This document shows, in pieces, positions 4,277 to 51,800 of a DNA stretch of 55,626 nt. Source of the stretch: a virus. Lineage: Duplodnaviria > Caudoviricetes. Each line of letters starts with the position of its first letter. The first letter of the stretch is position 1. The stretch lies in IMG/VR virus record IMGVR_UViG_3300021495_000006, positions 1 to 55,626 of that record; one strand, 5' to 3'. Below the pieces are notes generated by a model. It had not been told where the DNA came from, did no database searches, and saw only the letters and a list, made by a program, of their open reading frames with translations. Both the position numbers and the translations under genes were made by a program.

Positions 4277-4447
4277 TTACCTCCTACGCCTCCGTCTCTT
4301 CGATTTCTTCCTCCTTCTCACACGCTCTGGCAATGCACTGTATTTTACACCGCGCGTCCATTCCTTCCACTGCTTGCGGGTAAGCTTGCCCTGCTGCAAC
4401 AATAACCTTAGTTTTCTCCACTGCGCCTTTGACCTCACCGGCGACAT
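4277..4447 (-). CDS. Small basic protein
   Basis: MSPVRSKAQWRK... with poly-Arg tail. Confidence 0.6.
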   Translation of the reverse strand: MSPVRSKAQWRKLRLLLQQGKLTRKQWKEWTRGVKYSALPERVRRRKKSKRRRRRR

Positions 4448-4510
4448 TGTGACATCCTTCACACAAACCTTAAAATTTTGAGAATTTTACAAAAATCTTG
4501 TGCAAAACCC

Positions 4511-4539
4511 TTGACAAGACGTTGATTTTGTTGTATAAT
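4511..4539 (+). promoter_or_regulatory. Consensus sigma70-type promoter
   Basis: TTGACA-17 bp-TATAAT with AT-rich upstream region. Confidence 0.85.
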
Positions 4540-4580
4540 ATGACCAAAAATAATGGCCACGGCTTAGAAGGGAGGAAATC

Positions 4581-4790
4581 ATGGCTACTACATATTACGA
4601 AGTCCAGTGCTCATCGGGCGAGGAGCGGCTTTCGACCTTACCCCCTGATTGGCAGGCTGCGCTTGCAGAGGCACGCGAGCGCTGGCCGGACTACGACAAT
4701 TCTGAGTTGCTAGTGTATGAAGTAGATTGGACAAATCAGCGTCAACGGCCCATTTGGAACGATGGGCCAGGAGCATGGAGCGCATGGTGA
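4581..4790 (+). CDS. Hypothetical protein (plus-strand cassette gene 1)
   Basis: GGAGG RBS, downstream of the consensus promoter. Confidence 0.75.
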   Translation: MATTYYEVQCSSGEERLSTLPPDWQAALAEARERWPDYDNSELLVYEVDWTNQRQRPIWNDGPGAWSAW

Positions 4791-4861
4791 AAAGCCCAGC
4801 CAAGCAGAAGCCAACACAGCGAACACGCCGGGGTGAGAGGCCCGGCAAGGGAGGACACAAA

Positions 4862-5080
4862 ATGCTTATGAGCCAAAGACGTTTACGTGAATTCAGCGTG
4901 GACGGGCAAGTCGAATTCCGGGCTTGCTGCCCCGTATGTGGGCGGAACCTCCTCGGCGAGAAATTGGTCCGTATGTGGTATGTAGAGCCACAATACTCCA
5001 AAACCTTCTTTGAAACGGAATCCGGCCACGTTCTTGTCTACAACACTGTTGATTTACGCCGCATTGTGCACCCGGAATGA
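4862..5080 (+). CDS. Hypothetical protein with CxxC (plus-strand cassette gene 2)
   Basis: GGAGG RBS before ATG 4862; CPVCG; followed by terminator. Confidence 0.7.
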   Translation: MLMSQRRLREFSVDGQVEFRACCPVCGRNLLGEKLVRMWYVEPQYSKTFFETESGHVLVYNTVDLRRIVHPE

Positions 5081-5089
5081 CCACCCACC

Positions 5090-5118
5090 AGCCGCCCTTC
5101 GGGGCGGCTTTTTTATTC
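5090..5118 (+). terminator. Intrinsic terminator
   Basis: AGCCGCCC-TTCG-GGGCGGCT then T-tract. Confidence 0.85.
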
Positions 5119-5231
5119 GTCAAACACGCCCCATACCAAGCTCGACGAATCCAGGAACCACCGGCCCACCACAAACAGGTAATGCGCCAACTTCGCCCGC
5201 CACCGCTTGGGACAATGCCGCAATAAGCGCC

Positions 5232-5570: not shown

Positions 5571-5800
5571 TCGCGCAAAACCTCCTCCGCCAGCCCCACC
5601 CGCTCCGCCCGGCGGCGCTCCCATAACAGCGCTAACTCTCGCTCTATCGCACGCAAGCGCCGCACCTGCTTTGGCTCCTCGCTAATCCATAAACACCCAA
5701 AAGGACGCGAAGCTGCCGTAGCAGCAATGATGCCGCAAAGCTCGCTGTAAAGCTGGCGCTGCTCTTCTGCCAGCGCATTAATGGTGTCAAGCGTGCTCAT
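5522..5800 (-). CDS. Hypothetical coiled-coil protein
   Basis: ATGA overlap with the upstream gene. Confidence 0.6.
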   Translation of the reverse strand: MSTLDTINALAEEQRQLYSELCGIIAATAASRPFGCLWISEEPKQVRRLRAIERELALLWERRRAERVGLAEEVLREWEGWGRRRPRRFPVV

Positions 5801-6015
5801 ATCACGTCCCGCTGGGCCCGGATGAGGCTTTGCAAGATGCTCTTGACATCAGATAGCACACGCTCCCTGGCCCGCAGCTCTCGGAATTTGGCCTCGGCCT
5901 CCGGCAATGCCTCTGCAATGTTCAACATCTCATCGCAGACATCGGCCAAGAGGCGGCAAAGCTCGTCATAGTTGAGCTCTAAGAGCTCTTCACGCGAGGG
6001 CCTATCCAGTTGCAT
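5797..6015 (-). CDS. Hypothetical coiled-coil protein
   Basis: AAGGAG RBS; heptad pattern. Confidence 0.65.
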   Translation of the reverse strand: MQLDRPSREELLELNYDELCRLLADVCDEMLNIAEALPEAEAKFRELRARERVLSDVKSILQSLIRAQRDVI

Positions 6016-6102
6016 CGCTCCGCTCCTTTTAACAATTCACGCAAAAATTTTTTATTTTTAAGCGGCATTCTGACGCGCCCGCCCCACCCCGCCGCTCCAC
6101 CT

Positions 6103-6149
6103 ACAAAGACAAAGCGCCCGGCATACCCCTAGAGGTATGGCCGGGCGCT
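6103..6149 (-). terminator. Intrinsic terminator ending the ncRNA
   Basis: AGCGCCCGG(C)CATACC-loop-GGTATGCCGGGCGCT followed by TTGTCTTTGT. Confidence 0.75.
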
Positions 6150-6415
6150 CATCTCCGGCTAAGTTCCCCACCGTAAGCTGTGATGATTGCTGCAAGGGGA
6201 TTGCGCATTTATGATATTTTAGGATAAATGCCCCAGGCACTCCCCAGCCGCCGGGCCCCACAGCGTCCTGGGGCCACCACTAACCAACGGCGCTTCGATG
6301 GGGGAGCACATCGTCTTGGTCAGCTATGCGCACTCGCTGACCTGCGCCTATAGCCTGACATCCCCGAGGAAACGCCAGGGCGTATTAATGTTACTGCACA
6401 ACACGTTCAGGCCCT
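6103..6415 (-). ncRNA. Unidentified structured non-coding RNA (~310 nt)
   Basis: Bracketed by promoter and terminator, no credible ORF; multiple stems and two pseudoknots. Confidence 0.6.
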
Positions 6416-6421
6416 ATAATA

Positions 6422-6450
6422 TATATAGCATACTTTGGCGATCTTGTCAA
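6422..6450 (-). promoter_or_regulatory. sigma70-type promoter for the ncRNA
   Basis: TTGACA-17 bp-TATATA with extended -10 TG. Confidence 0.65.
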
Positions 6451-6458
6451 GTCTCAAT

Positions 6459-6668
6459 CTAACAGCTTTTGCGTTTAGCCCACAACGTCTCTATCGCTGC
6501 CTGAGCGAAGTAGAATTCGCGGGTTGCCCCGCATTTCGAGCACTTGATAATGCCCTGTGTGATAATGTCGCCCGTCTCCGCCCGCTCCAAGCGGTGATGT
6601 GGGTTGGTAATGATCCAGCCCAACACCGCTCCACAGTTGCGGCATCGCCAGGGTTTCTTTTCACTCAT
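6459..6668 (-). CDS. Com-like zinc-ribbon protein
   Basis: WRCRNCGAVLG...IKCSKCG resembles the Mu Com family. Confidence 0.6.
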   Translation of the reverse strand: MSEKKPWRCRNCGAVLGWIITNPHHRLERAETGDIITQGIIKCSKCGATREFYFAQAAIETLWAKRKSC

Positions 6669-7317
6669 GGCTCTCCTCCTCTAAACCAGGCCAATGGAAG
6701 TGTTGGAGGATAACTTCCGGGTTGGCCGTTAATTTCCATTGACCTGCTTTTTCATCCACCCACTCCGCGTATCCGCTAGCCAGCAGCAGGTCGCGGAAGT
6801 GCTTATACTGCTCTAACAGCACCACATCCTGCATGGCCGCCCAAGATGGATTAATGGCCGCCATGCGAACGAAGCGGGCAAAAGCTCCCGCTTCTGCTTT
6901 TAAAGCCCCCGGTGGAGCCCCACGGGGCACCATCATCACCACGTGTGTACCCGTTCCCTCCGCCAGGAATTTCTCAGCCCAATGGTAGAAGGCACGTTCA
7001 CGTGGTGCCAATGGGCCCTTCGGGTTCCACAGGTCGTAGGCCACCCGGTACACGCCGAAACCTGTAGCTATGGTCACGCCCAAGCTCACAAAGAATAGCC
7101 ACGGCGCGTACCAAGGAGAATCCCCAAGGGGCTTGCCATACTTGATGAAGCTATACCACACAGCCAAGAATGCTGCAATCATGAAGGCCAACAGGCAGAA
7201 TTGGAGAAATGTGACAAGCACTTGGGTGCGCCAGTCATATTTGACTTGCTCCCGCCATTCAGGTTCTTGGCGAGAGCGCAGCAAGACGTAGGTAAGGATG
7301 CGGTCAAAGTCCATCAT
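6661..7317 (-). CDS. Membrane protein (two TM helices)
   Basis: Two hydrophobic segments in the N-terminal half. Confidence 0.65.
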   Translation of the reverse strand: MMDFDRILTYVLLRSRQEPEWREQVKYDWRTQVLVTFLQFCLLAFMIAAFLAVWYSFIKYGKPLGDSPWYAPWLFFVSLGVTIATGFGVYRVAYDLWNPKGPLAPRERAFYHWAEKFLAEGTGTHVVMMVPRGAPPGALKAEAGAFARFVRMAAINPSWAAMQDVVLLEQYKHFRDLLLASGYAEWVDEKAGQWKLTANPEVILQHFHWPGLEEESHE

Positions 7318-13195: not shown

Positions 13196-13273
13196 CGCGG
13201 GCGGACAGGATTTGAACCTGCGAACAGGGCTTTTGGAGAGCCCTGGTTTAGACCTGACTCACTCCACGCCCGC
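13196..13273 (-). tRNA. Atypical tRNA-Trp(CCA)-like gene
   Basis: Acceptor GCGGGCG/CGCCCGC, anticodon loop CTCCAAA, T-loop TTCAAAT; weak D-stem and one extra C before the acceptor 3' strand; no CCA encoded. Confidence 0.65.
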
Positions 13274-16655: not shown

Positions 16656-16786
16656 AGGCTCTCCCTTAAAAAGAGGAGCCCCCTCCGACCCGGCGGTTCC
16701 CAGCTACGAGGCCACCGACTTTAGGTCGTTGGGGGCATAGAATACAAAATCCGCCCTGTCGGTTTTGGCCTCGTAGCTCTAAGAAC

Positions 16787-16815
16787 ATTATAGCATAATT
16801 TGGCCAATTTGTCAA
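16787..16815 (-). promoter_or_regulatory. Consensus sigma70-type promoter for the HNH gene
   Basis: TTGACA-17 bp-TATAAT with extended TG. Confidence 0.85.
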
Positions 16816-16816
16816 G

Positions 16817-16960
16817 TAAAAAAAGGAGGGGGCTCCGCCGCCGAGCAAAGGAGGTGTGGGGGCGATGAACTCCCCACACGAGGAACTCTTGCATTGGAGC
16901 CCCCACGCCTCCCCCGATGGCTATCACATCAGGGGAGGTAACACCAAACGCCAGGCGTTG
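16817..16960 (-). terminator. Structured 3' end of the late operon with U-tract
   Basis: GGGGGCTCC...GGAGCCCCC clamp followed by TCCTTTTTTT. Confidence 0.5.
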
Positions 16961-24359: not shown

Positions 24360-24378
24360 CTTGTGCCATCCCCCTCAG

Positions 24379-24449
24379 AGCGGGTAAGGGGATTTGAACC
24401 CCTACCAGCGGGCTGGCAGCCCGATATGCTACCATTACACCATACCCGC
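24379..24449 (-). tRNA. tRNA-Gly(GCC)
   Basis: Acceptor GCGGGTA/TACCCGC, D-loop AATGGTA, anticodon loop CTGCCAG, T-arm AGGGG-TTCAAAT-CCCCT, discriminator U; no CCA encoded. Confidence 0.85.
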
Positions 24450-36985: not shown

Positions 36986-37549
36986 TCACTCCTTAATCGC
37001 CTCCACATAAAGCGATTGCTCTTGGTGGTAGTCCTGCGTTTCGGCCTGCATCACTGGTGAATGGCTTTCACCCGGTCGCATGGGCACAATCCGCTTGAAC
37101 CCAGCCATCTCTAGCGCCTGCTTCAAGCCATCCCAAGTATAGGCATGTTGGTGACCTGTATACTCTTCACGCCCCGAAAGCGCCCCGAACAATATGCAGG
37201 CCAGCTTATTGTCCTCGTTCAATTGCTGGTAGATGGGGGGCTGGCAATGGGCAAAGTCGCCCATCTCACGGCGCACCCATTTTTCCAGCAACAGCCCAAA
37301 GTCGGGAACAGCAAGCCGCATTACCGCCCCGCGCTTCATCACCCGATGGCATTCCCGTAAGAAACGCAAGGCCTCAATGATGTTCAAATGCTCCAAGAAA
37401 TGAGAGGCATAGATAAGGTCCACACTGTTGTCGGGATAGGGCAATCCCCAGCGCACATCCCGCAGGATGATGCCGGGCCCCGGCTCTTTATCTATGTTGT
37501 GCCACCCTGGGAAGGTGTAGGGCCCACAGCCAATGTTAAGCTTTATCAT
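36986..37549 (-). CDS. Class I SAM-dependent methyltransferase
   Basis: KLNIGCG, IYASHFLEH, RVMKRGA. Confidence 0.85.
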   Translation of the reverse strand: MIKLNIGCGPYTFPGWHNIDKEPGPGIILRDVRWGLPYPDNSVDLIYASHFLEHLNIIEALRFLRECHRVMKRGAVMRLAVPDFGLLLEKWVRREMGDFAHCQPPIYQQLNEDNKLACILFGALSGREEYTGHQHAYTWDGLKQALEMAGFKRIVPMRPGESHSPVMQAETQDYHQEQSLYVEAIKE

Positions 37550-40500
37550 AATCTTCCCACTCTCTTAACCACTCCTCGGCCACACCCTCCCAACTGAAGT
37601 TGGGAGCATAAGCTTTGCCCTTGGCCGCCCACTTCTTGCGGAAAGCCGCATTGGCCAGCAGGCTTACAGCAAAGCCGATAAACATCTGCTGATACCGCCC
37701 GCTGGCCACATAGCCCGGCACCAGGATACCCCTATCCCCCACCGTCTCCGGCAAAGCCCCGCAGGTTGACGTAAGAATCGCCAAGCCCGCCGCCATTGCC
37801 TCCATTGCGGTGATACAGTTGTGGATGACCACACCACCGGCCACAAAGTTGTGTGTGCCCTCGACTTCCATGTTGTAAACGTCTTCATACCCATAAAAGG
37901 ACACAGAAGCCACGCGGTGATTGGCTTGTTGGATTTTCCTACGGGCCAGGCGCGCACATTCCCGCGAACAATATTTGGCCGTTTCCAATCTGTACAGTTG
38001 TACTTCAAACTCTTTGCCACAATATTGGCAATGCAATTTAACTCTTTTGCGGCGAGTCCGCCCCCTACGAAAGACAAACTCCCGCCGCTCCTCCTCGGTC
38101 ATGGAATTCCACAGCGCATGGCCCGCTATCGAGGCACGGCGGCGTTTCTCTTCAGGTGTCAGGCTAGCCCACCATTGTTCAAACCTCGCCTTTCGTTGCT
38201 TCACGCTGATTTTGCTTGGCGGGCGTTGATTGGCAAACGTTTTCTTGGCATGGGCCGAGGGGCTAAGTGCTTGTAGGTTCCCAACCTCATTATTGAAAGC
38301 ATTGCCATCAATGTGGTCTATGTGATAACCCTTAGGTATTGTCCCGTGCGCCCACTCGTACACTAAACGATGCTCATGCTTCCAAGGGCCCTCACCCGTT
38401 CCTACCTCTACGGATATACGTTTTTTAAGACTAACAACTCGGTCGCCAACAGCCAATTGGCTAATAGGCACCCATCCCCGCTCATAAGTCAAAACAAGGT
38501 GATCGGGTGTAGCCTTGAGGCAAGTGCCATCATCCCATTCAACCTTCCAAACTTCGGCTCGGCTACGGGTTTTCTTGACCCATTTGACCGTGCTCAATAC
38601 AAAGGTGCCTGTCTGTTCGTCATAAGACCACACGGGGAATTCGCTGCGCCCCACCAACTCCTTAATAGGCACGCCAAGAGGATATTTGCTGTAGTCTCGC
38701 GGCATGTCAATGAGAGTATCACCTGTGCAACATGATACCTCCAGGAAGGCAGTCGGATAGAACCAGCACCCTGCCGATAGGAATTCGAGAGCTAGTTCGT
38801 CCTGATTCACCCGCCCATGCCAGACGACATTGGGCGTTGCCTCAATCTGTTTCTCCACTTTCTGCTTAAACTCACGCAGTTGGGGCACTTTTTCGATGTT
38901 TTGCCAGCCATAGTAAAGGTGCAGTTCGGCGTCTGGCACAGCCCTTAAGATGACCGGCCACATTGCCAAAAGGTAATCCAACCCCCGGTCGGGGCTTGAG
39001 GCATAGACCACTTTATGCGGATTGCGCTTTACATCCCGGTCAAAACGGGAGAGGTCAATGCCGTTGCGCGTGGGCTTGAGATTGTTCAAGAAACCATAAC
39101 ACATCTGTAAATAATCCGAGTGCCACTGGGAAACGCCCATGATCCGGTCGAAGAAGTGCCCGCGCTCTGGCGTCATGTTGCCGCCCAGGTGCAAATCATG
39201 CACCCATAGCCACTTGACCTTGCCTCCCGCTTGGGCATCGGCCAGCAGCAATCCAGGAAGCCGCCAGCCTACCAGAAGGTCGGGCTGCATATCCGGCTTA
39301 TACCAGGTGTACGGCCAATAGCCCACCCCTTCGTATTCGCCCGCATATTTACCGCAGTCGTTGAAGACATCCACGTGCCAGCCCGCCTTAGCCAACAGTC
39401 GGGCCATGTGGATAACCGCCGTCTCGCTACCTCCAATGCCGCCCTTATGTAGCGAAGGCGGCCCCCATTCCTCCAAACTCTTCCCGCAATAGAAGACGGC
39501 CCACGGGCTATCGGTTGACCGTTGGCGGAAGGCAGCTTTTGTTACCCTTTTGCGAACTTCTGGCACGTCCATTAACTCTGGCGGGATAGGCGTTTGGAGC
39601 ACCGCTGCATCCGGCGCGCCTTCCCAAAATTTCAGCAGCCCCGCCGCTTTGGTGCGTAACTCCAAGATGTAATCGTAAATCTCCAACTTCTTCTTAAGGT
39701 GCTCCGAGTTGGGCGACACCTTCAAGGCGTCTATCACAATCTGTCTGGCCGTCTCCAAATCGCCAATGTGATAGTAGGCGATGTTGGCGAATAGTGCGGG
39801 ATTATACGTGTAATCCAGGGGATTGGTGAAGATAGCCGCGTCGGGCACTTTGGCCATGCGTCCCAGCTTGTCCCACCAAACGGCCTTCTCATATCGCCCC
39901 ATCCTGGTATAGGCTTCGCTGATCCCGAAGTAAGGATCGGCCCAGTCGGGAAAAAGGACGATGGCCTCTAGGTTTTTTTCAATGCATCTTCGGTAGTCCC
40001 CCAAGAGGCAGTAGCAGTCCGCCAGGAAATGAAGGGCTTGCCATCTCTCCTCCAGCGCGGATTCCAAGCGCAGGTAACGCTCATACCACAAAGCCGCGTT
40101 CTCCCAATCGCGGAGCGCATAATACTGATGCGCAATATAACACAGTGTACGCTTATCGTTAGGATTCTCTTCATAATCCATCTCCAGAAGCTTGAGATTG
40201 CGCTCCGGGTATCCGCGTCCAGTGGGGCTACGATGTAGCACCACAATGTCGGCACTACGGGCGAATTTGGTCGGCCCCAAGGCCTTTAACCCCTCATGCA
40301 CCCGCCGAATCCACGTCCACCCTATGCTCCGTTTAACGGCCCTCTCCCTGGTGAGGATGGTGATACAATTGCCGTTGTCGTCGAAACCATAGAAATAGGC
40401 CAGAAGCAAGCAGCCATAGCCTTGCTTGTCCAGCTTTTCAATAAGCGGTCGCAGCTCTTCGGCATTGTCCAATACGTCGTCAGCGTCCAGCCAGAAAGCC

Positions 40501-40781
40501 CAATCGGTGGTCAGTTTTTTGTAGACTTCATTGCGTGCTTGAGCGAAGCTGGCAATGCATTCGCCATAGTCCTCGAATTGGAATTTAGGCAGCCATGTCA
40601 GGTCAACGGCTTCGCCGCCGAATTCCTCCACTATTTGGCGTGTCTCGCCTTCCCAGCCCTCTTTGCTGGTGATGCCGACAACAATCTGGTCAAACTTGAC
40701 TGGCTTAACGCTCTCCAAACAAGCTCGCAAACTCTCGGTCTCGTTGCGGCAAATAAGATGTAGCCCGATTGTAACAGACAT
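37536..40781 (-). CDS. GT2-TPR-GT4 multidomain glycosyltransferase containing an intein
   Basis: FAQARN and WLDADD (GT-A), TPR helices, GGSETA/SSPDRGL (GT-B), intein in the EVS|CITAME motif. Confidence 0.9.
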   Translation of the reverse strand: MSVTIGLHLICRNETESLRACLESVKPVKFDQIVVGITSKEGWEGETRQIVEEFGGEAVDLTWLPKFQFEDYGECIASFAQARNEVYKKLTTDWAFWLDADDVLDNAEELRPLIEKLDKQGYGCLLLAYFYGFDDNGNCITILTRERAVKRSIGWTWIRRVHEGLKALGPTKFARSADIVVLHRSPTGRGYPERNLKLLEMDYEENPNDKRTLCYIAHQYYALRDWENAALWYERYLRLESALEERWQALHFLADCYCLLGDYRRCIEKNLEAIVLFPDWADPYFGISEAYTRMGRYEKAVWWDKLGRMAKVPDAAIFTNPLDYTYNPALFANIAYYHIGDLETARQIVIDALKVSPNSEHLKKKLEIYDYILELRTKAAGLLKFWEGAPDAAVLQTPIPPELMDVPEVRKRVTKAAFRQRSTDSPWAVFYCGKSLEEWGPPSLHKGGIGGSETAVIHMARLLAKAGWHVDVFNDCGKYAGEYEGVGYWPYTWYKPDMQPDLLVGWRLPGLLLADAQAGGKVKWLWVHDLHLGGNMTPERGHFFDRIMGVSQWHSDYLQMCYGFLNNLKPTRNGIDLSRFDRDVKRNPHKVVYASSPDRGLDYLLAMWPVILRAVPDAELHLYYGWQNIEKVPQLREFKQKVEKQIEATPNVVWHGRVNQDELALEFLSAGCWFYPTAFLEVSCCTGDTLIDMPRDYSKYPLGVPIKELVGRSEFPVWSYDEQTGTFVLSTVKWVKKTRSRAEVWKVEWDDGTCLKATPDHLVLTYERGWVPISQLAVGDRVVSLKKRISVEVGTGEGPWKHEHRLVYEWAHGTIPKGYHIDHIDGNAFNNEVGNLQALSPSAHAKKTFANQRPPSKISVKQRKARFEQWWASLTPEEKRRRASIAGHALWNSMTEEERREFVFRRGRTRRKRVKLHCQYCGKEFEVQLYRLETAKYCSRECARLARRKIQQANHRVASVSFYGYEDVYNMEVEGTHNFVAGGVVIHNCITAMEAMAAGLAILTSTCGALPETVGDRGILVPGYVASGRYQQMFIGFAVSLLANAAFRKKWAAKGKAYAPNFSWEGVAEEWLREWEDYDKA
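37818..38732 (-). mobile_element. Intein (305 aa) with HNH endonuclease
   Basis: N-terminal CCTGDT, ATPDH block B, C-terminal HNFVAGGVVIHN|C; internal HEHRLVY..IDHIDGN..NN..NL and a CxxC...CSREC finger. Confidence 0.92.
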
Positions 40782-41509: not shown

Positions 41510-44500
41510 TTAGGCAGCCTGCTTCTGGGTGGTGACGTGCTCCAGACGCACGATCGCGTTCTGATCCAAGATGACACAGGCGTGAGCCAATCTGTTACTT
41601 TTGTGACCATCCCTGCGGGATGGCGGGTGGTCATTTCTGCCACCTCTGCACGTTCATTTCCGTGCAGTTCGGACTATGCCATCACTCTTACGAGTGCGCC
41701 GTCTCTAGTCTCTACACACGCCCACACTCCCCCACAGGAGTGCTGCTTGGCTCGGCGTCGCCATCTCAGGTTTCCGCCGAATTTACGGCGTTTTACAAGG
41801 CCAACTCCGTCAGCCTTCCATCCATGCACCCAATACTGTGCCAACGGATCAGTCTTCGTCGGCGTCGCGGGCACGAAGTACGTCTGAGCCGCCATAGCAT
41901 CCAACTCGGTAATTCCGTAGGCATTCTTGCCGATGAAGAGGGTGCCGTATACGTCCGCTCCCGAAAGGCCCAAGCTGGCGTAAATCTTGGCGTTGGAGGT
42001 CACGACAAATTTGACCCCCAAGTAGTCTCCGATTTCGCCAGTGAACAAGGGGTTGTTGGGCCCACGCGGAGCAGCCCGCTGGAACGCCTCGTTGATGTCA
42101 TCATCGGCAAACATATCCGCCTCGGTGTCGGGATGGATGCAATCTGTTACTTGCATGACCCCATCATTACCCTACCATTACGATGGGGCGGGCAGGCATG
42201 TCTGCCTACCTCTGCGCCTTCCACATTAGGTTATACGCGCAGTTCGGACTGTCGCACCATCTCCGCAATGGAGAGCCCCTCGCTCAGTCTCTACACCCCG
42301 GCCCATGCGGGCCGTTGGCTCGCGGTAACCCACCTCTGGGTGTCCCCCGAATTCAGAGAGGTTTTTCATGCAACCTCACGGCTGCATGGCACCATGCCGA
42401 TGCAAATATACTTCCCATCCACTACCGGCTGGATGTTGTTCCTCTTCAAGGTCTTGACGGCTCGACGGATTTCGGCTGCCGTCAGGAGCATGCCGCTGCC
42501 CACCTGGCCACGCGAACCGGCTGTGGAGGCATACAAGACGTTAGAGCCCGATTGAAGGACCTCACGGTCAATAATATCCAGGGTGAGGCCCATCTGTTCT
42601 GATCTGTTACTTGATGACCTTGGAACATTAATGTTCCAAGGCGGGCGGTCATTTCTGCCGCCTCTGCATGTCGCCATGCAGTCCGGACTCTCCCTTCATT
42701 GCGCCCTATAGGGCGCAATGCCCCCCGTCGAGTCTCTACACCTTCCCGATACGAATACCGGGCTTGGCTCGCGGTTGTCTCAAAGAGACTTTCCCCGAAT
42801 TTGAGGGGTTTACCCTGGGCGAACAGTTCACCCATGAGCTCCGCAGTCTCGGCCAGCACGTTGTCAATCGCCTGCGTCTCCACAAGGTCGCTACCACGGA
42901 TGTAATCCAATCTGTTACTTTGGTGACCACACTATTAGAGTGTGGCGGGTGGTCATTTCTGCCACCTCTGCATGTTTCCATGCAGTTCAGGCCGTCGCTT
43001 CATCCTCTCGGATGCCGTCTCGCTCGGTCGTTGCGGCTGCTCCTACGGCGTTGAGCTTCCGCATCTTATGATACAGCTCCTCACGCCGTAGTAGCTCCCT
43101 CTGTTTTACCTCCTCGGATTGATTACGCCTGTCCACATAGTTGAGAATAAAATCCAGGAGGATTTCGGCTTGGGGCCTTTTCACTCGTAAGTAGGGCAAC
43201 ACCAAACACAACGCCCGGAATACACACCTACGCCCACTTACGACCCAGCGGTAAATTGGCCTTCGGCCATCAGAGGGAGCGCGCTCTATGCGGACACTAC
43301 CGCCCAAGTGTTTGGCCAACAAGTCTATTGGCTCTTTGTCCACCATGCCCACGCTTATGTAAGTAGTGTATCGAGTATCCTTAACGTGGAACTTGGGGTT
43401 GGGCTTCATCTTACAGATTCTAAGCGTGCCTTCGCCGTCTAGAATCCCCGCCAAGTATCCGTATAGAGCCGCTTGCCTCGGGTCATCATGCAGGATTGCC
43501 ATTGCAATCTCCTGTTTAGACTTTCCCGGTATTCAGAGACGGTTTTACTACGGCAATTCCCATTACCGTACTGGCTGATCGTCACAGTGACAGCGGTCAT
43601 GCTCAAGTTGCTGCCTGAAGGGGGCGTGCCCTCAGTCAGGGCAGTCGTCGCAGCAGCAAGAGACTTGAACTTCCTGAACTCAATGCTCTTGCCCGCGCCT
43701 TTTGGGATATTGCGCTTCTGCGCAAACTGCCCGTGAACCAGATTCATGTTTGTTACTCTACCCCCCCCGCTAGTGTGGGGGATAGGGCCTGGTCATTTCT
43801 GCCAGGCTCTGCATGTCGCCATGCAGATCAGACTATTTCATGCTCTCCGCCTTTAATCGTATCGGCTGAGAGCCTCGCCGTATAGTCGTTGAGAGCGCGA
43901 TCTTGGGTTGCTTGGCAGGCAATTGCCGGAATCGCTCCAAAAAGCTCATTTCCTTGGCGATTTCTTCCTCGGTTCGTGCCTTGTGGGGCAAGCGGCGACC
44001 ATGCCAATCACGCTCCCAGTCTCTATCATTGAACCGGCTGGCCTGCTTCCACTCCGCAAATTCGAGGATTAATTCAGCTCGCGGCTTCTTGCAGGTCAAG
44101 TATGGCAAAACAATCCTCAGCAATCGCACAACAGAGTTAATGCGACACACTGTGATTGCCACGGAATCATGCCAATGTTCCCGGCCCTTTTTCCCTTGGT
44201 GGCGGTTGAGCGTGTAGTAATAATGCACTCCCCACCGGGAATAAATCTCACTTAGGCGGCGTAACAGGCTAAACTCCGTGCTTGTCACAGAGATTTTAAT
44301 GCCAAGCGATTGTGTGCCATTGCCCTTATTCCTGACCTCATATAAGCCGCATGAGCCTTCGCCATCCAAAATGCCTGCCACCCATCCGACCTCGATTGGG
44401 TCGGGATCGCGTCTGCTAGTTGTCTCCACCATGGGTCTTTTCCTCCTTTGGGGCCAACGGATACACGAGACTTTCTAGCATAAGGCGAGTTTGCAATTAG

Positions 44501-45815: not shown

Positions 45816-48800
45816 TTACCATCGCCTATACCAGCGCAACTTAGGCGCTCTCCGCACCCGCCTGCGCTTGGGCTCTGTAAGCGCCAGGTGCGCCGCCAGG
45901 CTTTGGGCTAATGCCGCAAGCCATTCCGGTGATTTGTCTTGTAGCCAGGCCGCCAAATCGGGATACCGCCGCAAGAACCATCCTCTCTGCGCTTCGGGCA
46001 AAAGAAGATAGCTCTGTATCAGCTCCAAAAGCCCCTTATCCTCCATGCCCTCGGCGAATTTCCACCAATCGGTGGCCATATCCTCCAATGTCTCACGCTT
46101 CGTCTTGCGGCGTCTGCGGCCCCGCCTCCGCTTTGGCTTCGGTGTATACGGCTGCCATGTCGGGTAGAGCCACTTGACCATCACCGGATGACTGGCTTTC
46201 CATTCGTCCATGAAGCGCCAGGCCGGTTCCAATTGCTCACGCAGGGCCTTGCGTTTGTTGAACTCCCACCATTTCAGCTTAGAATAGGCGTCCATCAACT
46301 CGGAGTAATTGGGGACGATGGAACGCACGGCCTCCCACATTTCGGCCCGTTCACGCAAGGCCTGGTCGTATTCCGCCGCCAGCTCCGGTGATACGCGCTG
46401 GAACCGTCCACTTGGGGCTTGCAACCCCGCTTCCGTCAAGGCCGCGCCCGGCCAGGGCTTGGGTTCATAAGCGCCCCATTCCTTCAGGAATTCCGCCTCC
46501 GCAGCCTTGACTGCCGCGCCCCTGGCCTCTGCCATCTCAGGCAATAAGCCAGGGTCAAGCCCGGCATAGTTGAGCCAGTATATCAGCTCTTCATCGGTGA
46601 TGGCGTCGTAATCCCGCGTCTTCTTGTTGACAAAGAGCCTCTGGAAGCGGTCGCCCAGCGCCTTCTTCAAGCGCCTCTTATCCAGCGCGGGCAAGGCCAT
46701 GTAGAACTCCCACAGGTCGCTGATGGCCCTATCCCTTGGGCTCATGCCCCGGCGCCGGACTTCTTTAAGCCCCGGCAGGGTGATGTCCCGATAAATCTCC
46801 GCAAGCTGGTCGTATGTCCAGCCCTTCTCTGGATACATCGCCAGCACACGGGTGATGAATTCGGTGGCGGGCCGAGCCGGATAATTTGAATAATATTTAT
46901 CAAATAACTCGGCCCGCTCCGCCCCGCTCAAGCCCTCGGCCTCCGCAAACATGGCCTTCTGAGCAGGGTTGATGACCGTCTCTTTGTAAACTCGCCACAG
47001 GGCCTCTTTGGGGTCATCGTTGCGGCGCAGATAACGCTCCAAGCGCGCACGGGTGAGCCAGGATAGTTGCGGTATCTTGCCCTTAATGCCCATTTCCCGC
47101 AACGCGCTCTTATCGAGATAGGGCAGCCACTTCTTGGGATTGTTCAGGAACTCATCGCGCGCCCGGTAGAAGGCATCCCAATCAATCTTGCCCTCTTTGT
47201 CCTTAAATTGCTCTGGCTGAATGGCATAGTAGGCTTCAGCAACCGGCCGCAATGCTTTGTCTTCATAGTAGGTTTCGATCTCGCTGGGCGTCCAGCCCCA
47301 GAACGAGGGCGTGCGCACTATGTCTTTGTATTCATCATCAAGTGCATCTAACTCTTCCTGCCGCTTGCGGTATATCGTCTGCCGAGCACGCCAATCGCCC
47401 AATGGGACTTTATCCAAGTCTTTGGCATAGCGGTCATAAATGGCCCTGCGCTTGTCGTAGTATTCGCGCTCCCTGAATTGCACCACCCGTTCGGGGCCAG
47501 GCGTCCAGAGCAAGCCCCGGCTTGTATACCACGGATTGGCCTCATACCACTTCCGCCTGGCCTCTCGAATCTCCGGCCCCTTTTCCCCGGCTCGCTCTCG
47601 CTCGTAAATCTCCGCCAAGCCCTCTGCACGCCGGATGCGCATTTCGCCCTTCGGTAGCAACCTGGGCCGAATGCCTAGAAAATAGGATACCGCCGTTGGG
47701 AGTTGTTTTAAGATAGCCGCCCGATTAACCGCCTCCTCCCATATTGGCCCCTGGTGATACATTGGACTGGCCGGGTTCAAGACGGCATCGCGCTCCTCCG
47801 GTGTGATCTCCTCATTGGCCGCCATGTCCAATACCATGCTCTCCGGCCAGTATTCTGCTTCATAGCCCGCCGCTTCCGGCAGGCCCAAGCCCACACGGAA
47901 GGGCTTTTCGATGTTCAATCCGCCGGGCGGGATCCAACCGAAGCGCTCCGGCCACTTCTCCCGCATGTAAGCGGTCATGCCCTTCAACACGCCCGTCTGT
48001 GGGAGAATATACCAAATATTCTCCCGCTTGCCCCGCGCCATATCCAAGGCCACCTGTAGCGGCCAATGCGGAGCCATGCCGAAGATGTGTTGCAAGTCAG
48101 CCAGCCTGTCCAAAGCAGTCTTGGCCTCATTGTTATCGTCCCAATCCACTTTGGCCAAGTAATTGAACGGCCAGACTCCCACGTGGGGAAAGATGAAGGG
48201 CATGATGTCAATAGGGACGCGCTTCTCTGCCCATTCCGGTAAAGCTTCGGCCACACCCTCAGGCGCAGGCACAAAGAGGGCCGTCGGCCCGTAGCGCCTG
48301 GGGAAGCCCATCTCCTCATTGATGCGCTCGATAGCCTTGCGCATACGGTAATAGCTTGTGACCGTCCAGGGCTTGGTAATCATACGCATGGCCGCCTGAT
48401 AGCCGGTGCGTGTAGGCCAGAAATGGAACGGGAAGAATAAAGCGATTAGACGGTCAAGCTCATAGCGCTTGTCATAATCGTAAAGAGCCCGGTTGACGAC
48501 CTCATAGGCCCATTGCAATTTAGCCATGTTCGCGTCTTCCCTGGCAGGCACAAGCACCTGCTTCACCCTATCCAGGAAGACACGCTTTAGCTCTTCGACC
48601 ACCGGCTCTGCTTTATCGCGGGTGATGCCCTTCTTCAGGCGTTCGATAAGCTTTAGCTCTGCCTCACTTGCCGACCGCACGCCCTTGGCATAGCTGGGCA
48701 TCCCACTGGTCATGGCAGCCGCGCGGGATAGCGCTCGTGTGGCAATGCGCTCATAATCCTTCGCCGTGCTGCCTTTGAACCGCTTGGCCTGCTTCCGAGC

Positions 48801-51800
48801 CCATTCTGCAAAGTCGCCCAGCCACTTGACGTATTCATCCGGCGGCTCTGCCTTGCTGATGTCGGTGACCGGAACACTGAACGCCCGGCCCTTCTCTGGG
48901 TCGTATACCCATGTGAGCACAGCGCCCGAACGAACGCGCGCTGTCCTAGCTGCAATGCCATCCCCTTTCGGCGTATGCACCCAATCAGCCGGCTGCACGC
49001 CGCCAGGTAGAATCTTGGGCGGGGCCTTGGGCTTGGCTACTTTCGGTGCCTTCGGCTTCGGCGCTTTCTCTATTGCCTTGGCCGCCTCCGCCTCTGCCTT
49101 GAGCACTTCATCAAATTCCTCAAGCGGCGCTTCAGCAATCGGCTTCAGTTCATCCCACCAACCCTGGGCCTTTGCCAACTTCTCGATGTCATCTAATTCC
49201 GCTTGGACAGCAGCCCGCCTAATGGGGGAGGCGTTCACCCGTGTGAGACCGGCCAATAGCTTTTTCCGGCTCTTATAGCGGTTAAGATCGCCCTCCCACC
49301 TCTTCGGCTTAGTGACCTTCGGCGGCGCAGCGGCTTCCTCTACAAGTTTCGGCTCCCCCACAATCTCCCAGCCGGACGGCCTGGCGAATTCACGCAGTTC
49401 ATCCCACCAGCCCTCGGCCCTAGCCCTTTCAGCAATTTCGTCCAGCCTTGCACGGATACGCCCCGTCTCGCTCTCAGGATAGCCCCGGTCAATGTAGTCT
49501 CGTAACTGGCGTATCAGCCGCTTATACTCCGCCACCTCATCGGCGTGGACGACCTCCATCGCCTTCTTCATGCCCAGCTTAGCACGCAAGGCATTGGCCT
49601 CGGCGCGTAAGTCCTTCTCTAGCTTGGGGGCTATGGCACGGCCCAATCGCTTCTGCTCATCCAGGAAATTCTCGATGGTCTCCAGCCGCTTGCGAGCCTC
49701 GTTCTTGGTCATCTTAGCCACACGTTCGGCCATAGTGGTGGGCTTCTCCGCTACCTTGGCGACTTCTGGAACCGCCTCAACTGCGGCCTCCTCCACCCTC
49801 GCCGCTTCAACGGCCTCGGCCACTTCTTCGGCCTTGGGGATAATCTTCTCACCTTCCTCCACCGCTTCCTTCGGCAATGAGGCCAACTCCGCCTTCAGCG
49901 CCTTGATGCGGCCCTTGAGCTCTTTGACCTTCTTGTGGGCGTCTACATAATCCCGAACGGCCTGGAGCAAATCCTCTTGGGAACGGAAGCCCAGCTCGGT
50001 GGCCATATCATCGGTAACCGCATACTCCCACGAGACTAACTTGCCCGTGGCCCTGTCACGCACACGCTTGAAGGTGCCCGTGTGATAGTCCCACAGCTTG
50101 AAGACCGTCTTCTGATCCAAGGGCTGGGCCTTGAGGTAATCCTGCAACGATTCCAGATATTGCTCCGTCTGGTAAAGTTCGGCCTGGAGATCCGCCGCCT
50201 TCTCCGCCGCCGTCTCGACCTCTTTGATGGCCTTCGGCGCTTTTTCGACCACGCCCTCAAGGGCAGGATGACCGCTCAATAGCTGATAGGTGGGCGTATT
50301 GGCTTCGGCCATCTTTGCCCATAGGTAATCCTGCCACTTCTTGGCCAATTCCGGCTGCTCCTCGATGAACCGCCGTAGCTCCGTGAGTTTCGTTGGGAAG
50401 GGAATGTCGGGGCTGACGTGCTTGGCCCAAGCGCGCCGGGCATATTCGCCCTTCTTCCACATATCGAGCTCATAGGCGGCCTTCGCCATCTCGTCGGCGC
50501 TCATCCACAAGCCTTCAGCCGTCGCCCCGCGTTCGGTCATCTCGCGCACCATCGTGGCGTAGGTGCGCTTGACAATCTCCTCTGGCTTGCCTTTACGGAA
50601 TTCCTCCGCCGCCTCGATGCCCGGAAGCAACGCCGCCTCTTTGGGCTTCACCGTGACGGGCAGGTTCTCCAGTTGCTCAGCCCGAGCCAGTCGCTTCTCA
50701 ATCTCCGCCGCGACTTCATCCACGCCTTTGGCCAACTTCTCGGCATCATCCCCGGCTTCATCCACGACTTCCTGAATGGCCTTGACGAAGCCAGGCGAAA
50801 CCTCCTCGGCATCGTCAATATAGCGAGCCACCAAGGTGAGGCCACTTAAGGCCTTCTCGGTGTTCTCGATAAGCTCCTCGCCATTGAGGGATTGTCTCCA
50901 CGCTGCAATCAGGTTGGCCTTAGTGTTGGGATCAATATAAGGCCACAGGTCATCAAAGGCCGAGAGGTCAATCAGCCCACCCGGGCGCCAATAGAGATCG
51001 TCGAATTTCTGGCAGGCCCGATAGGATGCCCCATACCGCGCCCAGGCCTCGCCCAGCAGCGGTATGTTGCCGCTGTAAAGGCGTCGGCCCAGGTCGGCCA
51101 ATTCCCGGATGATGGGCAATCCCCGCTTAGGCCCTCTATACTCCCGCGTCAAGCCCAAGCCGCGCTGAAACTGCGCCGGGCTGAAGCCAAACGAGCGAAT
51201 CATGTAATCGTCAATATGATTATGCGAAGCGAAGGACAGCAACCCGTCATACGTCAGAAAACTCACATTGCCCGCCGCATTCCTGATAAGGGCCCTGGGA
51301 GAGATGCCCATGTAGAAGTCGGCCATAAAGCTCTTAAAGCCCTGGGCATACTTCTCCGCCGTGCTGGGCGGCTTCACACCATAAAGCTCGTTAGTCACCT
51401 TGATGGACTTGTCATAAAGCTCGCTCAGAAAGTCCATCAGCTTGAACTCACGGTCGGGCTTCAGCGTGCGGAAGCTGTCAATGTCCATCATCTTGAGCGC
51501 CTTCCGCACCTCATTGGCCGCCGGGGATTTGACGAACGAGCCGAATTCGGGTGGCAAGCTCTCCGGGGCCTCCACAAAGCTCTTGAGCAAAATCTTGGCT
51601 TCATCCGGTGTCTTGGCACGCCGCAGCACCAATCCTGTGAAACTGTTAAGGTGCCTATCCAACGCCCTGGCCTTGCTGTGTGCAGTGATGCGGAAGGGGT
51701 TAAGCTGCTCGATCTTGCCCCCGATCTGCTGCCATGCCCGCTTGAACCAGGGCATTTGCTCCACCGTCTCTTGGACGATAGGCTCTGCCTTGCGAACGAA

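What the first reader, a model, noticed from the sequence alone, without database searches (positions are those of the whole stretch)
6103..6450. Stand-alone ~310-nt pseudoknotted ncRNA with its own promoter and terminator
Seen (minus strand): a TTGACA-17-TATATA promoter; a 5' multibranch domain closed by GGCCUGA/UCAGGCU; an H-type pseudoknot (GCGCA/UGCGC with GGUCAGC/GCUGACC); a hairpin CGAUG/CAUCG whose loop UGCUCCCC can pair with downstream GGGGAGUG; further stems (GGCCCCA/UGGGGCC, GCAUUUAU/AUAAAUGC); and a terminator. There is no credible ORF, and I cannot match it to tmRNA, RNase P, SRP or 6S. Inference: an undescribed phage RNA (decoy, ribozyme or packaging-type RNA). The adjacent upstream gene is a Com-like Zn ribbon, a family known to bind RNA.
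Basis: partly seen in the sequence, partly recalled or inferred. Interest (0 to 1): 0.72.

Follow-up and report, generated by a model that had tools for sequence, protein, structure and literature searches.

The report
Conserved pseudoknotted leader RNA before phage packaging genes
An uncultivated phage carries a roughly 310-base untranslated unit, running from a promoter to a terminator, whose 123-base core keeps its folded shape in a related phage; it most likely controls whether transcription runs on into the genes just before the DNA-packaging genes.

Summary
The observation mostly holds. On the minus strand, a TTGACA-17-TATATA promoter (6450-6422) is followed by about 310 nt with no conserved ORF. 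The unit ends in a long bulged G+C-rich hairpin with a U-rich tail (6150-6103). No Rfam 15 family, tRNA or tmRNA matches it.

New here: only a 123-nt core (6350-6228) is conserved. A related phage contig (L002; terminase 71% identical) holds two diverged copies at the same place, upstream of the homologue of the 72-aa gene. Across the three copies a five-helix fold plus an invariant loop-to-GGGGA pairing is kept. 91% of cells pair, against 37-56% in slid controls, and 9 pairs change on both sides, against 0-2.

The "Com-like" label for the upstream protein is not supported either.

L002 has neither the promoter nor the terminator, so the core is a leader element rather than necessarily a stand-alone gene. 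The unit lies between the replication/recombination genes and the 72aa-92aa-HNH-terminase block.

My reading is a cis-acting leader that governs terminator read-through (pR'-tR', put or conAn-like), with the short terminated RNA as a by-product or a second function. The evidence is thin: three copies plus contig fragments, and no RNA data.

The parts
6459..6668 (-). Upstream gene: a 69-aa Cys4 zinc-ribbon protein of no assignable family
   Evidence: ORF. It gives only sub-threshold generic zinc-ribbon, rubredoxin and Lar hits. No relative other than itself was found among 5.8 billion proteins of near length or in viral contigs.
6422..6450 (-). Sigma70-type promoter TTGACA-17-TATATA, with TGC just before the -10 hexamer
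   Evidence: Exact match. It is 25/29 identical to the 12-of-12 promoter at 16815-16787.
6351..6416 (-). Lineage-specific 5' domain (predicted multibranch fold) following the inferred transcription start
   Evidence: MFE fold (z = -1.29). It is absent from L002. A roughly 90%-identical contig in run X4 carries seven deletions here, 18 nt in total (table 4).
6228..6350 (-). Conserved 123-nt core. Helices: P1 6348-6343/6294-6289; P2 6342-6336/6324-6318; P3 6313-6309/6300-6296; P4a 6273-6267/6237-6231; P4b 6265-6262/6241-6238; P5 6258-6255/6249-6246. Pseudoknot: UCCCC 6305-6301 pairs with GGGGA 6245-6241.
   Evidence: Alignment A4, pair counts, coordinates. The window's MFE and centroid folds equal the nested model. 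Covariance model R1 scores 111.2, 147.5 and 137.8 bits on the three copies; the next best hit scores 8.1.
6151..6227 (-). 3' domain with two predicted hairpins; conserved only among close relatives
   Evidence: Fold (z = 0.03). Absent from L002. Covered by contigs from runs X2, X4 and X6 with few differences (tables 3 and 8).
6103..6150 (-). Intrinsic terminator: a long bulged G+C-rich hairpin with a U-rich tail
   Evidence: Fold of 6013-6160 has z = -3.20, with 0 of 200 shuffles as good; sequence.
6016..6102 (-). Spacer between the terminator and the 72-aa gene. It holds an A-tract/T-tract (6040-6057) and the ribosome-binding site, and has no sigma70-like promoter on the minus strand.
   Evidence: Searches find no minus-strand promoter-like site here. 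The 18-nt A/T tract is identical in L002 copy A, at the same 32-nt distance from the start codon, and is similar in L002 copy B and in L003.
5797..6015 (-). Downstream 72-aa gene (function unknown), the conserved neighbour of the core
   Evidence: 71% identical to the L002 homologue. 10 relatives besides itself in metagenome proteins. No Pfam, PHROG or NCBIfam family.

Best explanation
The region is the structured 5' leader of the transcription unit that starts the 72aa-92aa-HNH block, just before the terminase genes of a tailed phage.

A near-consensus host-type promoter fires. RNA polymerase then transcribes a 123-nt core made of a three-way junction (P1-P2-P3) and a long bent hairpin (P4a-P4b-P5). 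The invariant P3 loop (UCCCC) ties the two halves together by pairing with an invariant GGGGA in the P4/P5 internal loop.

About 80 nt further on, polymerase meets a strong intrinsic terminator. Most transcripts stop there and give a ~310-nt RNA. The downstream genes are expressed only when the terminator is read through.

I infer that the folded core, alone or together with a small phage protein, acts in cis on the elongating polymerase, or on the nascent transcript, to set that read-through. This would resemble lambda pR'-tR', HK022 put or the plasmid conAn system.

Shown: the promoter motif, the terminator hairpin, the absence of a conserved ORF, the conserved fold, and the conserved position.

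Inferred: transcription itself, termination, read-through control, and any protein partner.
For: 1. Position.
- Gene order on the minus strand is: replication initiator, DnaC-like loader, RusA-like protein, 218-aa protein, zinc ribbon, [this unit], 72 aa, 92 aa, HNH, small terminase, large terminase.
- The structural genes lie at the far end of the contig.
- This is the junction where lambdoid phages place pR'-tR'.

2. No sigma70-like promoter on the minus strand lies between the terminator and the 72-aa gene. That gene therefore needs read-through.

3. The core is conserved with its neighbour.
- L002 keeps the order 218-aa homologue ... core ... A/T tract ... 72-aa gene ... 92-aa-like genes.
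- Each of L002's two core copies precedes a copy of the start of the 72-aa gene.

4. Structure is conserved rather than sequence.
- 37 pairs, 111 cells, 91.0% paired against 37.3-56.4% in six slid controls.
- 9 pairs change on both sides against 0-2 in the controls.
- 0 of 500 shuffles reach the observed covariation score.
- G-U pairs occur on this strand only, which fits an RNA read in the same direction as the genes.

5. A partial fourth variant (run X6, record 15) keeps P4a, P4b and P5 with a different P5 loop and a changed 5' strand. The substitution at 6239 in X2, X4 and X6 turns a G-U pair into G-C.

6. A second strong promoter of the same type, at 16815, is also followed by a structured leader and a terminator-like hairpin before its first gene. 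Promoter-leader-attenuator looks like this phage's habit.

7. In both lineages a small Cys4 protein gene ends just upstream of the element. The two proteins are unrelated in sequence.

8. Precedents.
- The lambdoid late promoter is always active and terminated at tR', and the short transcript can itself act as an sRNA (PMC7547250, abstract and introductory text read).
- put RNA acts in cis on RNA polymerase (PMC9378689, Introduction read).
- conAn pairs a small protein gene with a large downstream RNA at the start of an operon (PMC8191782, sections 22 and 31 read).
Against: - No transcript data. None of the 7 listed runs is on record as RNA, so the start, the end and any read-through are all inferred.
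- Only three full copies exist, and two come from one contig. The fold was derived from these same sequences, which inflates the slid-control contrast (see the caveats).
- L002 has neither a promoter nor a nearby terminator. A role tied to the adjacent terminator therefore cannot be the conserved function; a processive or translational role would fit better.
- The core alone is not thermodynamically unusual: z = -0.72, +0.52 and -0.37.
- The more distant 72-aa homologue L003 has no core in the 322 nt held upstream of its match.
- One low-depth 123-nt contig (run X6, record 14) joins 6212 to 6400 without the core. The element is therefore dispensable in some relatives.
- No homologue of Q, N or any other known antiterminator was found next to it.
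- The minus-strand unit runs into a convergent plus-strand two-gene cassette at 4581-5080. It may therefore not be the promoter for the terminase genes themselves.
Confidence: 0.5

Rival explanations
1. A stand-alone, trans-acting non-coding RNA. The ~310-nt terminated transcript is the product, and it acts on host or phage targets through the invariant UGCUCCCC loop, or as a protein decoy.
For: - It has its own near-consensus promoter and a strong terminator.
- The invariant exposed loop motif could serve as a seed.
- Short pR'-tR' transcripts are known to become working sRNAs (PMC7547250, abstract). This reading can therefore coexist with the leader reading.
Against: - Both L002 copies lack a promoter and a terminator and lie inside an operon leader.
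- The conserved part is tied to the 72-aa gene, not to the transcription signals.
- No target has been identified and there are no RNA data.
Confidence: 0.25
2. A translational control element. The invariant pyrimidine loop (anti-Shine-Dalgarno-like) pairs either with the internal GGGGAG (decoy) or with the ribosome-binding site of the 72-aa gene, switching its translation. A small protein may help, as Com does for mom in phage Mu.
For: - The loop region is complementary to the RBS region of the downstream gene over 8 nt in L002 copy A (0.35% of 2000 shuffles do as well).
- The same holds over 7 nt in L002 copy B (3%).
- The MFE folds of both L002 copies pair GCUCCCC with GGGGAGC.
- A small zinc-binding protein gene lies directly upstream in both lineages.
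Against: - In the window the match is only 5 nt, and 38% of shuffles do as well.
- In the window the RBS also lies more than 200 nt and one terminator away from the loop.
- Any CUCC-rich loop matches any GGAG-type RBS.
- The zinc proteins are not Com family members.
Confidence: 0.1
3. A riboswitch. The core is an aptamer for a metabolite or signalling nucleotide, and the window's terminator is its expression platform.
For: - Compact multi-helix pseudoknotted core with invariant joining nucleotides.
- A terminator lies downstream in the window.
- Two alternative pairings exist for the same segments: P4a versus the local GGCC hairpin.
Against: - No Rfam riboswitch matches, even at E <= 10.
- About 80 nt of unconserved sequence separate the core from the terminator.
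- L002 has no terminator.
- The downstream gene gives no metabolic clue.
Confidence: 0.1
4. Not a functional RNA. It would be a DNA-level element (protein-binding site, recombination hotspot) or neutral G+C-rich spacer whose apparent pairing arises by chance among three related sequences.
For: - Only three copies.
- Related sequences can beat shuffles without any structure (caveat).
- The core is absent in some relatives.
- Core fold energies are unremarkable.
Against: - 9 pairs change on both sides against 0-2 in the slid controls, which keep relatedness.
- The G-U pairs are strand-specific.
- L002's two copies have diverged from each other at many positions yet keep every helix.
Confidence: 0.05

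Closest known systems
Lambdoid late leader (pR' promoter, short '6S'/StxS transcript, tR' terminator, Q antiterminator)
   Same: - A strong host-type promoter is followed within a few hundred nt by an intrinsic terminator.
- It lies between the replication/recombination ('nin'-like) genes and the block of genes just before the terminase.
- The downstream genes need read-through.
- The short terminated RNA accumulates and can gain its own function (PMC7547250, abstract and introductory text). The lambda gene order itself is recalled from general knowledge.
   Different: - No Q homologue: the upstream gene is a 69-aa zinc ribbon with no family.
- The conserved part here is an RNA fold inside the leader, which lambda's leader is not known to need.
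- The relative L002 has the fold without the promoter or the terminator.
HK022 put RNAs (cis-acting antiterminator RNAs)
   Same: A structured RNA just downstream of a promoter and upstream of terminators. In HK022 it acts alone, in cis, on the polymerase (PMC9378689, Introduction).
   Different: - put is about 70 nt with two stem-loops. This core is 123 nt with five helices and a pseudoknot.
- Activity is untested.
conAn bipartite antitermination system of pLS20-type conjugative plasmids
   Same: A small protein gene is immediately followed by a large (~300-380 nt) untranslated RNA region at the head of a long operon containing terminators. In conAn the RNA does the antitermination and the protein gives processivity (PMC8191782, sections 22 and 31).
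   Different: - A phage, not a plasmid.
- ConAn1 homology was not tested, because no ConAn1 sequence was in hand.
- The features named for conAn2 (a GC-rich 16-mer and stem-loop SL1) are not the same as this fold.
- Here the promoter lies between the protein gene and the RNA.
Phage Mu Com / mom translational activation
   Same: A small zinc-binding protein gene lies directly upstream of a structured RNA that precedes the regulated gene. This description of Com is recalled from general knowledge, not taken from a call.
   Different: - The 69-aa protein gives no Com family hit.
- The RNA is far larger than the mom translation-inhibition hairpin.
- A promoter and a terminator intervene.

Membership tests
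Any Rfam 15 family (tmRNA, RNase P, SRP, 6S, riboswitches, ribozymes, C4, HEARO and others) | A covariance-model match at or near the family's gathering score | tested here: not met
   Gathering scan of the whole window: 3 hits, none in this region. E <= 10 scan of 5950-6550: 5 hits, with best scores of 18.5 bits against a gathering score of 40.2 (the terminator hairpin, minus strand) and 17.9 against 39 (plus strand over the same hairpin). The only hit overlapping the core scores 13.6 against 38.
tmRNA | A tRNA-like domain plus a tag-peptide reading frame | tested here: not met
   ARAGORN finds only tRNA-Trp and tRNA-Gly, elsewhere in the window.
Lambdoid pR'-tR' late leader | A sigma70 promoter followed by an intrinsic terminator, placed between early/replication genes and the genes that follow | tested here: met
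Lambdoid pR'-tR' late leader | A Q-family antiterminator gene immediately upstream | tested here: not met
   No Q family in Pfam or PHROGs for the 69-aa or the 218-aa protein.
HK022 put RNA | About 70 nt, two stem-loops | tested here: not met
   The core is 123 nt with five helices and a pseudoknot. The put description is from PMC9378689.
HK022 put RNA | Cis-acting suppression of termination through the RNA polymerase beta' zinc-binding domain | not testable with these tools
   Needs in vitro transcription or genetics.
conAn bipartite antitermination | A small protein gene followed by a large untranslated RNA at the operon start, with terminators downstream | tested here: met
   69-aa gene, then ~310 nt of non-coding sequence, then a terminator. 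This is a resemblance of arrangement only.
conAn bipartite antitermination | A ConAn1-homologous protein | not tested
Mu Com zinc-ribbon family | A match to the Com family profile | tested here: not met
   Not among the 12 Pfam families at E <= 0.01, the 25 shown of 32 at E <= 10, or the 8 NCBIfam families at E <= 1.

The most novel reading that the evidence does not exclude
The 123-nt pseudoknotted core is a new class of cis-acting, polymerase-modifying (processive antitermination) RNA in phages of marine sediment and vent bacteria. It would be a further RNA-based antiterminator alongside put, EAR and conAn2. Unrelated small zinc-binding proteins encoded just upstream may have been recruited as processivity partners in different lineages.
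Probability: 0.2. Interest if true: 0.8.

Novelty: new variant of a known kind. Interest (0 to 1): 0.55.

Why it matters
RNA elements that reprogram RNA polymerase are very few. The conAn paper counts put and EAR as the only others, and all come from well-studied hosts. A conserved, pseudoknotted leader at the junction between the replication genes and the genes before the terminase, in an uncultivated phage, would give a new and compact model for RNA-directed control of elongation or termination. Even if the mechanism turns out to be translational or trans-acting, the core is a defined candidate RNA family with a testable fold, and it is not in Rfam 15.

Tried and rejected
- Phage DNA search. 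blastn of 6000-6700 against 50,697 phage records found no match.
- Relatives of neighbouring proteins.
  - Zinc ribbon: 24 pattern hits, 0 relatives; only itself among 5.8 billion proteins of near length.
  - 218-aa protein: 2 pattern hits, 0 relatives.
  - TerL: 1 relative, L002.
  - 72-aa protein: L003 and L004 in metagenome contigs (L004 is the same phage as L002); nothing new in viral contigs; 0 of 43 candidate stretches in genome contigs.
- DNA patterns.
  - One search found 0 matches.
  - One search found L002's contig again plus L006. L006 scores only 8.1 bits with model R1, so it is a chance match.
  - One search found L008, a genome contig, where the pattern site gets no R1 hit at E <= 10.
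- Sequencing runs. No RNA holder is listed among the 7 runs. This says nothing about expression.
- The difference table was cut (128 rows not shown), so no conservation profile across the unit can be drawn from it.
- Host identification failed. The first 8.3 kb of L002's record hold only phage-type genes. The nearest cultured-phage terminases are about 25% identical.
- ESM Atlas look-ups of the 69-aa and 72-aa proteins were uninformative.
- A PDB sequence search with the zinc ribbon gave only generic zinc-finger noise.
- The earlier-findings tool and the relatives search are not open for this record.
- The catalogue of about 8,500 IMG/VR structured-RNA candidates (PMC10690425, passages read) may contain this motif.

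Full report
WHAT THE WINDOW IS
The window is a 55.6-kb IMG/VR virus record, estimated 71% complete. Nearly all its genes lie on the minus strand.

Read in the direction of transcription, the part near the finding runs as follows:
- replication-initiator-like protein (11038-10025)
- DnaC-like loader (10101-9226)
- RusA-like protein (8200-7886)
- three proteins of unknown family
- a 69-aa Cys4 zinc ribbon (6668-6459)
- the non-coding stretch under study
- a 72-aa gene (6015-5797) and a 92-aa gene
- an HNH endonuclease (5624-5232)
- a short convergent plus-strand cassette
- small terminase (3334-2936) and large terminase (2438-1038)

Head, tail and glycosyltransferase genes fill the other end of the contig. 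The finding therefore lies at the junction between the replication/recombination genes and the block of genes just before the terminase.

CHECK OF THE OBSERVATION
- The promoter is there exactly as described (6450-6422, 0 mismatches).
- It belongs to a small set of near-consensus sigma70-type promoters in this phage: 16815(-), 4511(+), 16023(-), 17964(+) and 32903(+).
- The promoter at 16815 shares 25 of 29 positions with it, spacer included.
- The terminator is a long bulged G+C-rich hairpin (6150-6113) with a U-rich tail to 6103. The fold of 6013-6160 has z = -3.20, with 0 of 200 shuffles as good.
- From a start near 6415 to 6103 the transcript would be about 310 nt.
- Rfam 15 gives nothing here at gathering level and only far sub-threshold noise at E <= 10.
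- ARAGORN finds no tmRNA.
- The two ORFs inside the unit (30 and 67 aa) have no conserved counterpart in the relative.

RELATIVES
The phage is isolated. The zinc ribbon and the 218-aa protein have no detectable relatives. The large terminase found one IMG/VR contig, L002, at 71% identity.

L002 keeps the local gene order:
- a homologue of the 218-aa protein (34% identity)
- four small genes, the last a 72-aa Cys-rich protein unrelated to the window's zinc ribbon
- the 72-aa gene (71% identity)
- two paralogue-like genes resembling the 92-aa gene

Upstream of the 72-aa gene, L002 holds a ~125-nt element homologous to window 6350-6228. It holds it twice, at 1642-1770 and at 2313-2438. The first copy is followed by an internally deleted, frameshifted copy of the start of the 72-aa gene.

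L004, a metagenome contig, is the same phage as L002. L003, a 40%-identical homologue of the 72-aa gene, has no such element in the 322 nt held upstream of its match.

Everything else in the window's unit is absent from L002: the promoter, the 5' domain (6416-6351), the 3' domain (6227-6151) and the terminator.

THE FOLD
The three core copies differ at many positions (mean column identity 78%), yet they keep the same helices:
- P1 closes a three-way junction that carries P2 and P3. P2 is 7 bp with an 11-nt loop. P3 is 4-5 bp, and its loop holds the invariant UGCUCCCC.
- A 11-15-nt variable linker leads to a long hairpin made of P4a (7 bp), a 1-2-nt bulge, P4b (3-4 bp), an internal loop and P5 (4 bp).
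- The invariant run CUGGGGAGC/U is shared out between the 3' strand of P5 (CU), a 5-bp pairing with the P3 loop (GGGGA with UCCCC) and the 3' strand of P4b. That packing would explain why the run never varies.

Counts on the MAFFT alignment:
- 37 pairs and 111 cells, of which 91.0% are paired.
- 9 pairs change on both sides.
- 0 of 500 column shuffles reach the observed covariation score.
- The six slid controls give 37.3-56.4% paired and 0-2 such pairs.
- P2 and P4a are the strongest helices, each with 3 doubly changed pairs and every cell paired.
- P3 scores only 66.7%, because the window's stem lies one column off in the alignment. In its own register it is CGAUG/CAUCG.

The window's core folds into exactly the nested part of this model on its own, with MFE equal to centroid. 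For the two L002 copies the MFE instead pairs GCUCCCC with GGGGAGC, which shows that the pairing is strong.

A covariance model built from the three copies scores them at 147.5, 137.8 and 111.2 bits. Nothing else in 89.6 kb scores above 8.1 bits. L002's full record holds only those two copies.

Caveats:
- There are only three sequences, and two come from one contig.
- The structure was read from these same sequences.
- The core's folding energy is not unusual (z = -0.72, +0.52 and -0.37).

- Kept: P2, P3, the loop-to-GGGGAG pairing, the promoter, the terminator, the lack of an ORF and the lack of a known family.
- Not kept: the stem GCGCA/UGCGC, which would have made P2 an H-type pseudoknot, pairs only in the window. 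P1 uses those bases instead.
- Not kept: the local hairpin GGCCCCA/UGGGGCC can form in all three copies (85.7% of cells), but 337 of 500 shuffles do as well. It competes with the better-supported P4a. It could still be an alternative conformer.
- Lineage-specific: the 5' multibranch domain and the GCAUUUAU stem lie outside the conserved core.

POPULATION DATA
Seven DNA runs from vent and marine-sediment metagenomes hold parts of the region. Four were laid on 5600-6900.
- Run X4 has a 19-kb contig covering the whole stretch, with 128 differences and 26 gaps.
  - Seven deletions totalling 18 nt fall in the 5' domain (6348-6392).
  - Among the listed rows, the core carries only 6239 and 6260. The list was cut, so this is not a complete picture.
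  - On the RNA strand, 6239 turns a G-U pair into G-C, whether that pair is read as part of P4b or of the loop pairing.
- A 108-nt contig in run X6 diverges upstream of 6251. Read on the RNA strand, it still offers P4a (6 bp), P4b (3 bp) and P5 (4 bp, with a different tetraloop).
- Another X6 contig (123 nt, depth 6.5, shorter flank 25 nt) joins 6212 to 6400 through 14 other bases. It keeps the promoter and the 3' part but has no core. The tool warns that such joints can be artefacts.

HOW IT MOST LIKELY WORKS
- In the window, the 72-aa gene has no sigma70-like promoter of its own on the minus strand between 6103 and 6015. It must therefore be reached by reading through the terminator.
- That arrangement matches the lambdoid late leader. 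There the late promoter is always active, the transcript stops at tR', and an antiterminator lets polymerase through (PMC7547250).
- What differs is that the conserved, selected part is an RNA fold inside the leader, and that the fold persists in L002 without a nearby terminator. This points to an RNA acting on the transcription complex or on the message itself, rather than a local hairpin competition.
- Precedents are HK022 put (PMC9378689) and the conAn system, in which a small protein gene is followed by a large antiterminating RNA at the head of an operon (PMC8191782).
- In both lineages a small Cys-rich protein gene ends 9-12 nt before the element or its promoter. The two proteins are unrelated to each other and belong to no known RNA-binding family. 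This is a hint of a partner and no more than that.
- The promoter at 16815 is likewise followed by a ~110-nt leader with a 12-bp stem and a weak terminator-like hairpin before an HNH gene. Promoter-leader-attenuator units may be general in this phage.

RIVALS
- Stand-alone trans-acting RNA. This can coexist with the leader reading, as the StxS RNA does in Shiga-toxin phages.
- Translational switch. It has some support in L002, where the loop matches the RBS region over 8 and 7 nt (0.35% and 3% of shuffles do as well), but none in the window (5 nt, 38%).
- Riboswitch. It cannot be excluded, but it has no positive evidence.
- Chance or a DNA-level element. The strand-specific G-U pairs and the slid controls make this unlikely.

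A SEPARATE CONSERVED FEATURE
An 18-nt A-tract/T-tract lies 32 nt before the start codon of the 72-aa gene. It is identical in the window and in L002 copy A, and recognisable in L002 copy B and in L003. L003 has no core, so the tract belongs to the gene's own expression signals rather than to the RNA fold. Its role is unknown.

NOVELTY AND VERDICT
- This is a real, conserved, pseudoknotted RNA element that is not in Rfam 15.
- My three full-text paper searches turned up no description of it.
- It might still be one of the unnamed candidates in the IMG/VR catalogue of PMC10690425, whose supplements I could not open.
- Its setting is a known kind, a phage leader with an attenuator. Its fold, and its likely mode of action through RNA, would be a new variant of that kind.
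- The evidence base is small and there are no expression data, so interest is moderate to good rather than high.

Noticed in passing
window 16676-16835 (-): A 12-of-12 sigma70-type promoter lies at 16815-16787, 25/29 identical to the one at 6450 with its spacer included. A GGAG-CCCC-CUCC terminator-like hairpin with a U-run lies just before it. After it come a ~110-nt leader with a 12-bp stem and a weak terminator-like hairpin (16691-16676), ahead of an HNH gene (16655-16092).
   Followed up: partly
window 4447-5120 (+): A convergent plus-strand cassette. It has a 12-of-12 promoter at 4511-4539, two ORFs (4581-4790 and 4727-5080, the first with a strong RBS) and a good terminator at 5090-5109. 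It interrupts the minus-strand gene run between the HNH gene and the terminase genes.
   Followed up: no
window 42664-42846 (-): A group I intron (Rfam RF00028, 65.4 bits). It lies next to a major-head-protein fragment (41674-42156) and two HNH ORFs (42987-43502, 43833-44432). The capsid gene appears to be split by an intron and homing endonucleases.
   Followed up: no
window 13196-13271 (-) and 24378-24449 (-): Phage-encoded tRNA-Trp(CCA) and tRNA-Gly(GCC).
   Followed up: no
L002 1640-2700: A tandem duplication of the RNA core together with the 5' part of the 72-aa gene. Copy A is followed by an internally deleted, frameshifted gene copy and an inserted 93-aa ORF. The two cores have diverged but keep all helices.
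   Followed up: partly
window 6040-6057 (-); L002 1777-1794; L003 about 247-262: A conserved A-tract/T-tract 32 nt upstream of the start of the 72-aa gene. It is identical over 18 nt between the window and L002 copy A, and it is present even where the RNA core is absent. Its role is unknown; a promoter element, a bend site or a translational enhancer are possibilities.
   Followed up: partly
window 6212-6400, run X6 record 14: A low-depth 123-nt contig joins these two points through 14 other bases. This suggests a relative that keeps the promoter and the 3' part but lacks the core. It may be an assembly artefact.
   Followed up: no
window 45816-52883 (-) and 37536-40781 (-): A 2355-aa ORF with no PHROG match, and a 1081-aa ORF that joins glycosyltransferase regions to an HNH endonuclease region.
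   Followed up: no
L002 1078-1368 (+): A 96-aa protein with a weak sigma-70 region 4-like helix-turn-helix (Pfam E = 0.005, below cut-off), two genes upstream of the first RNA copy. It has no counterpart in the window.
   Followed up: no
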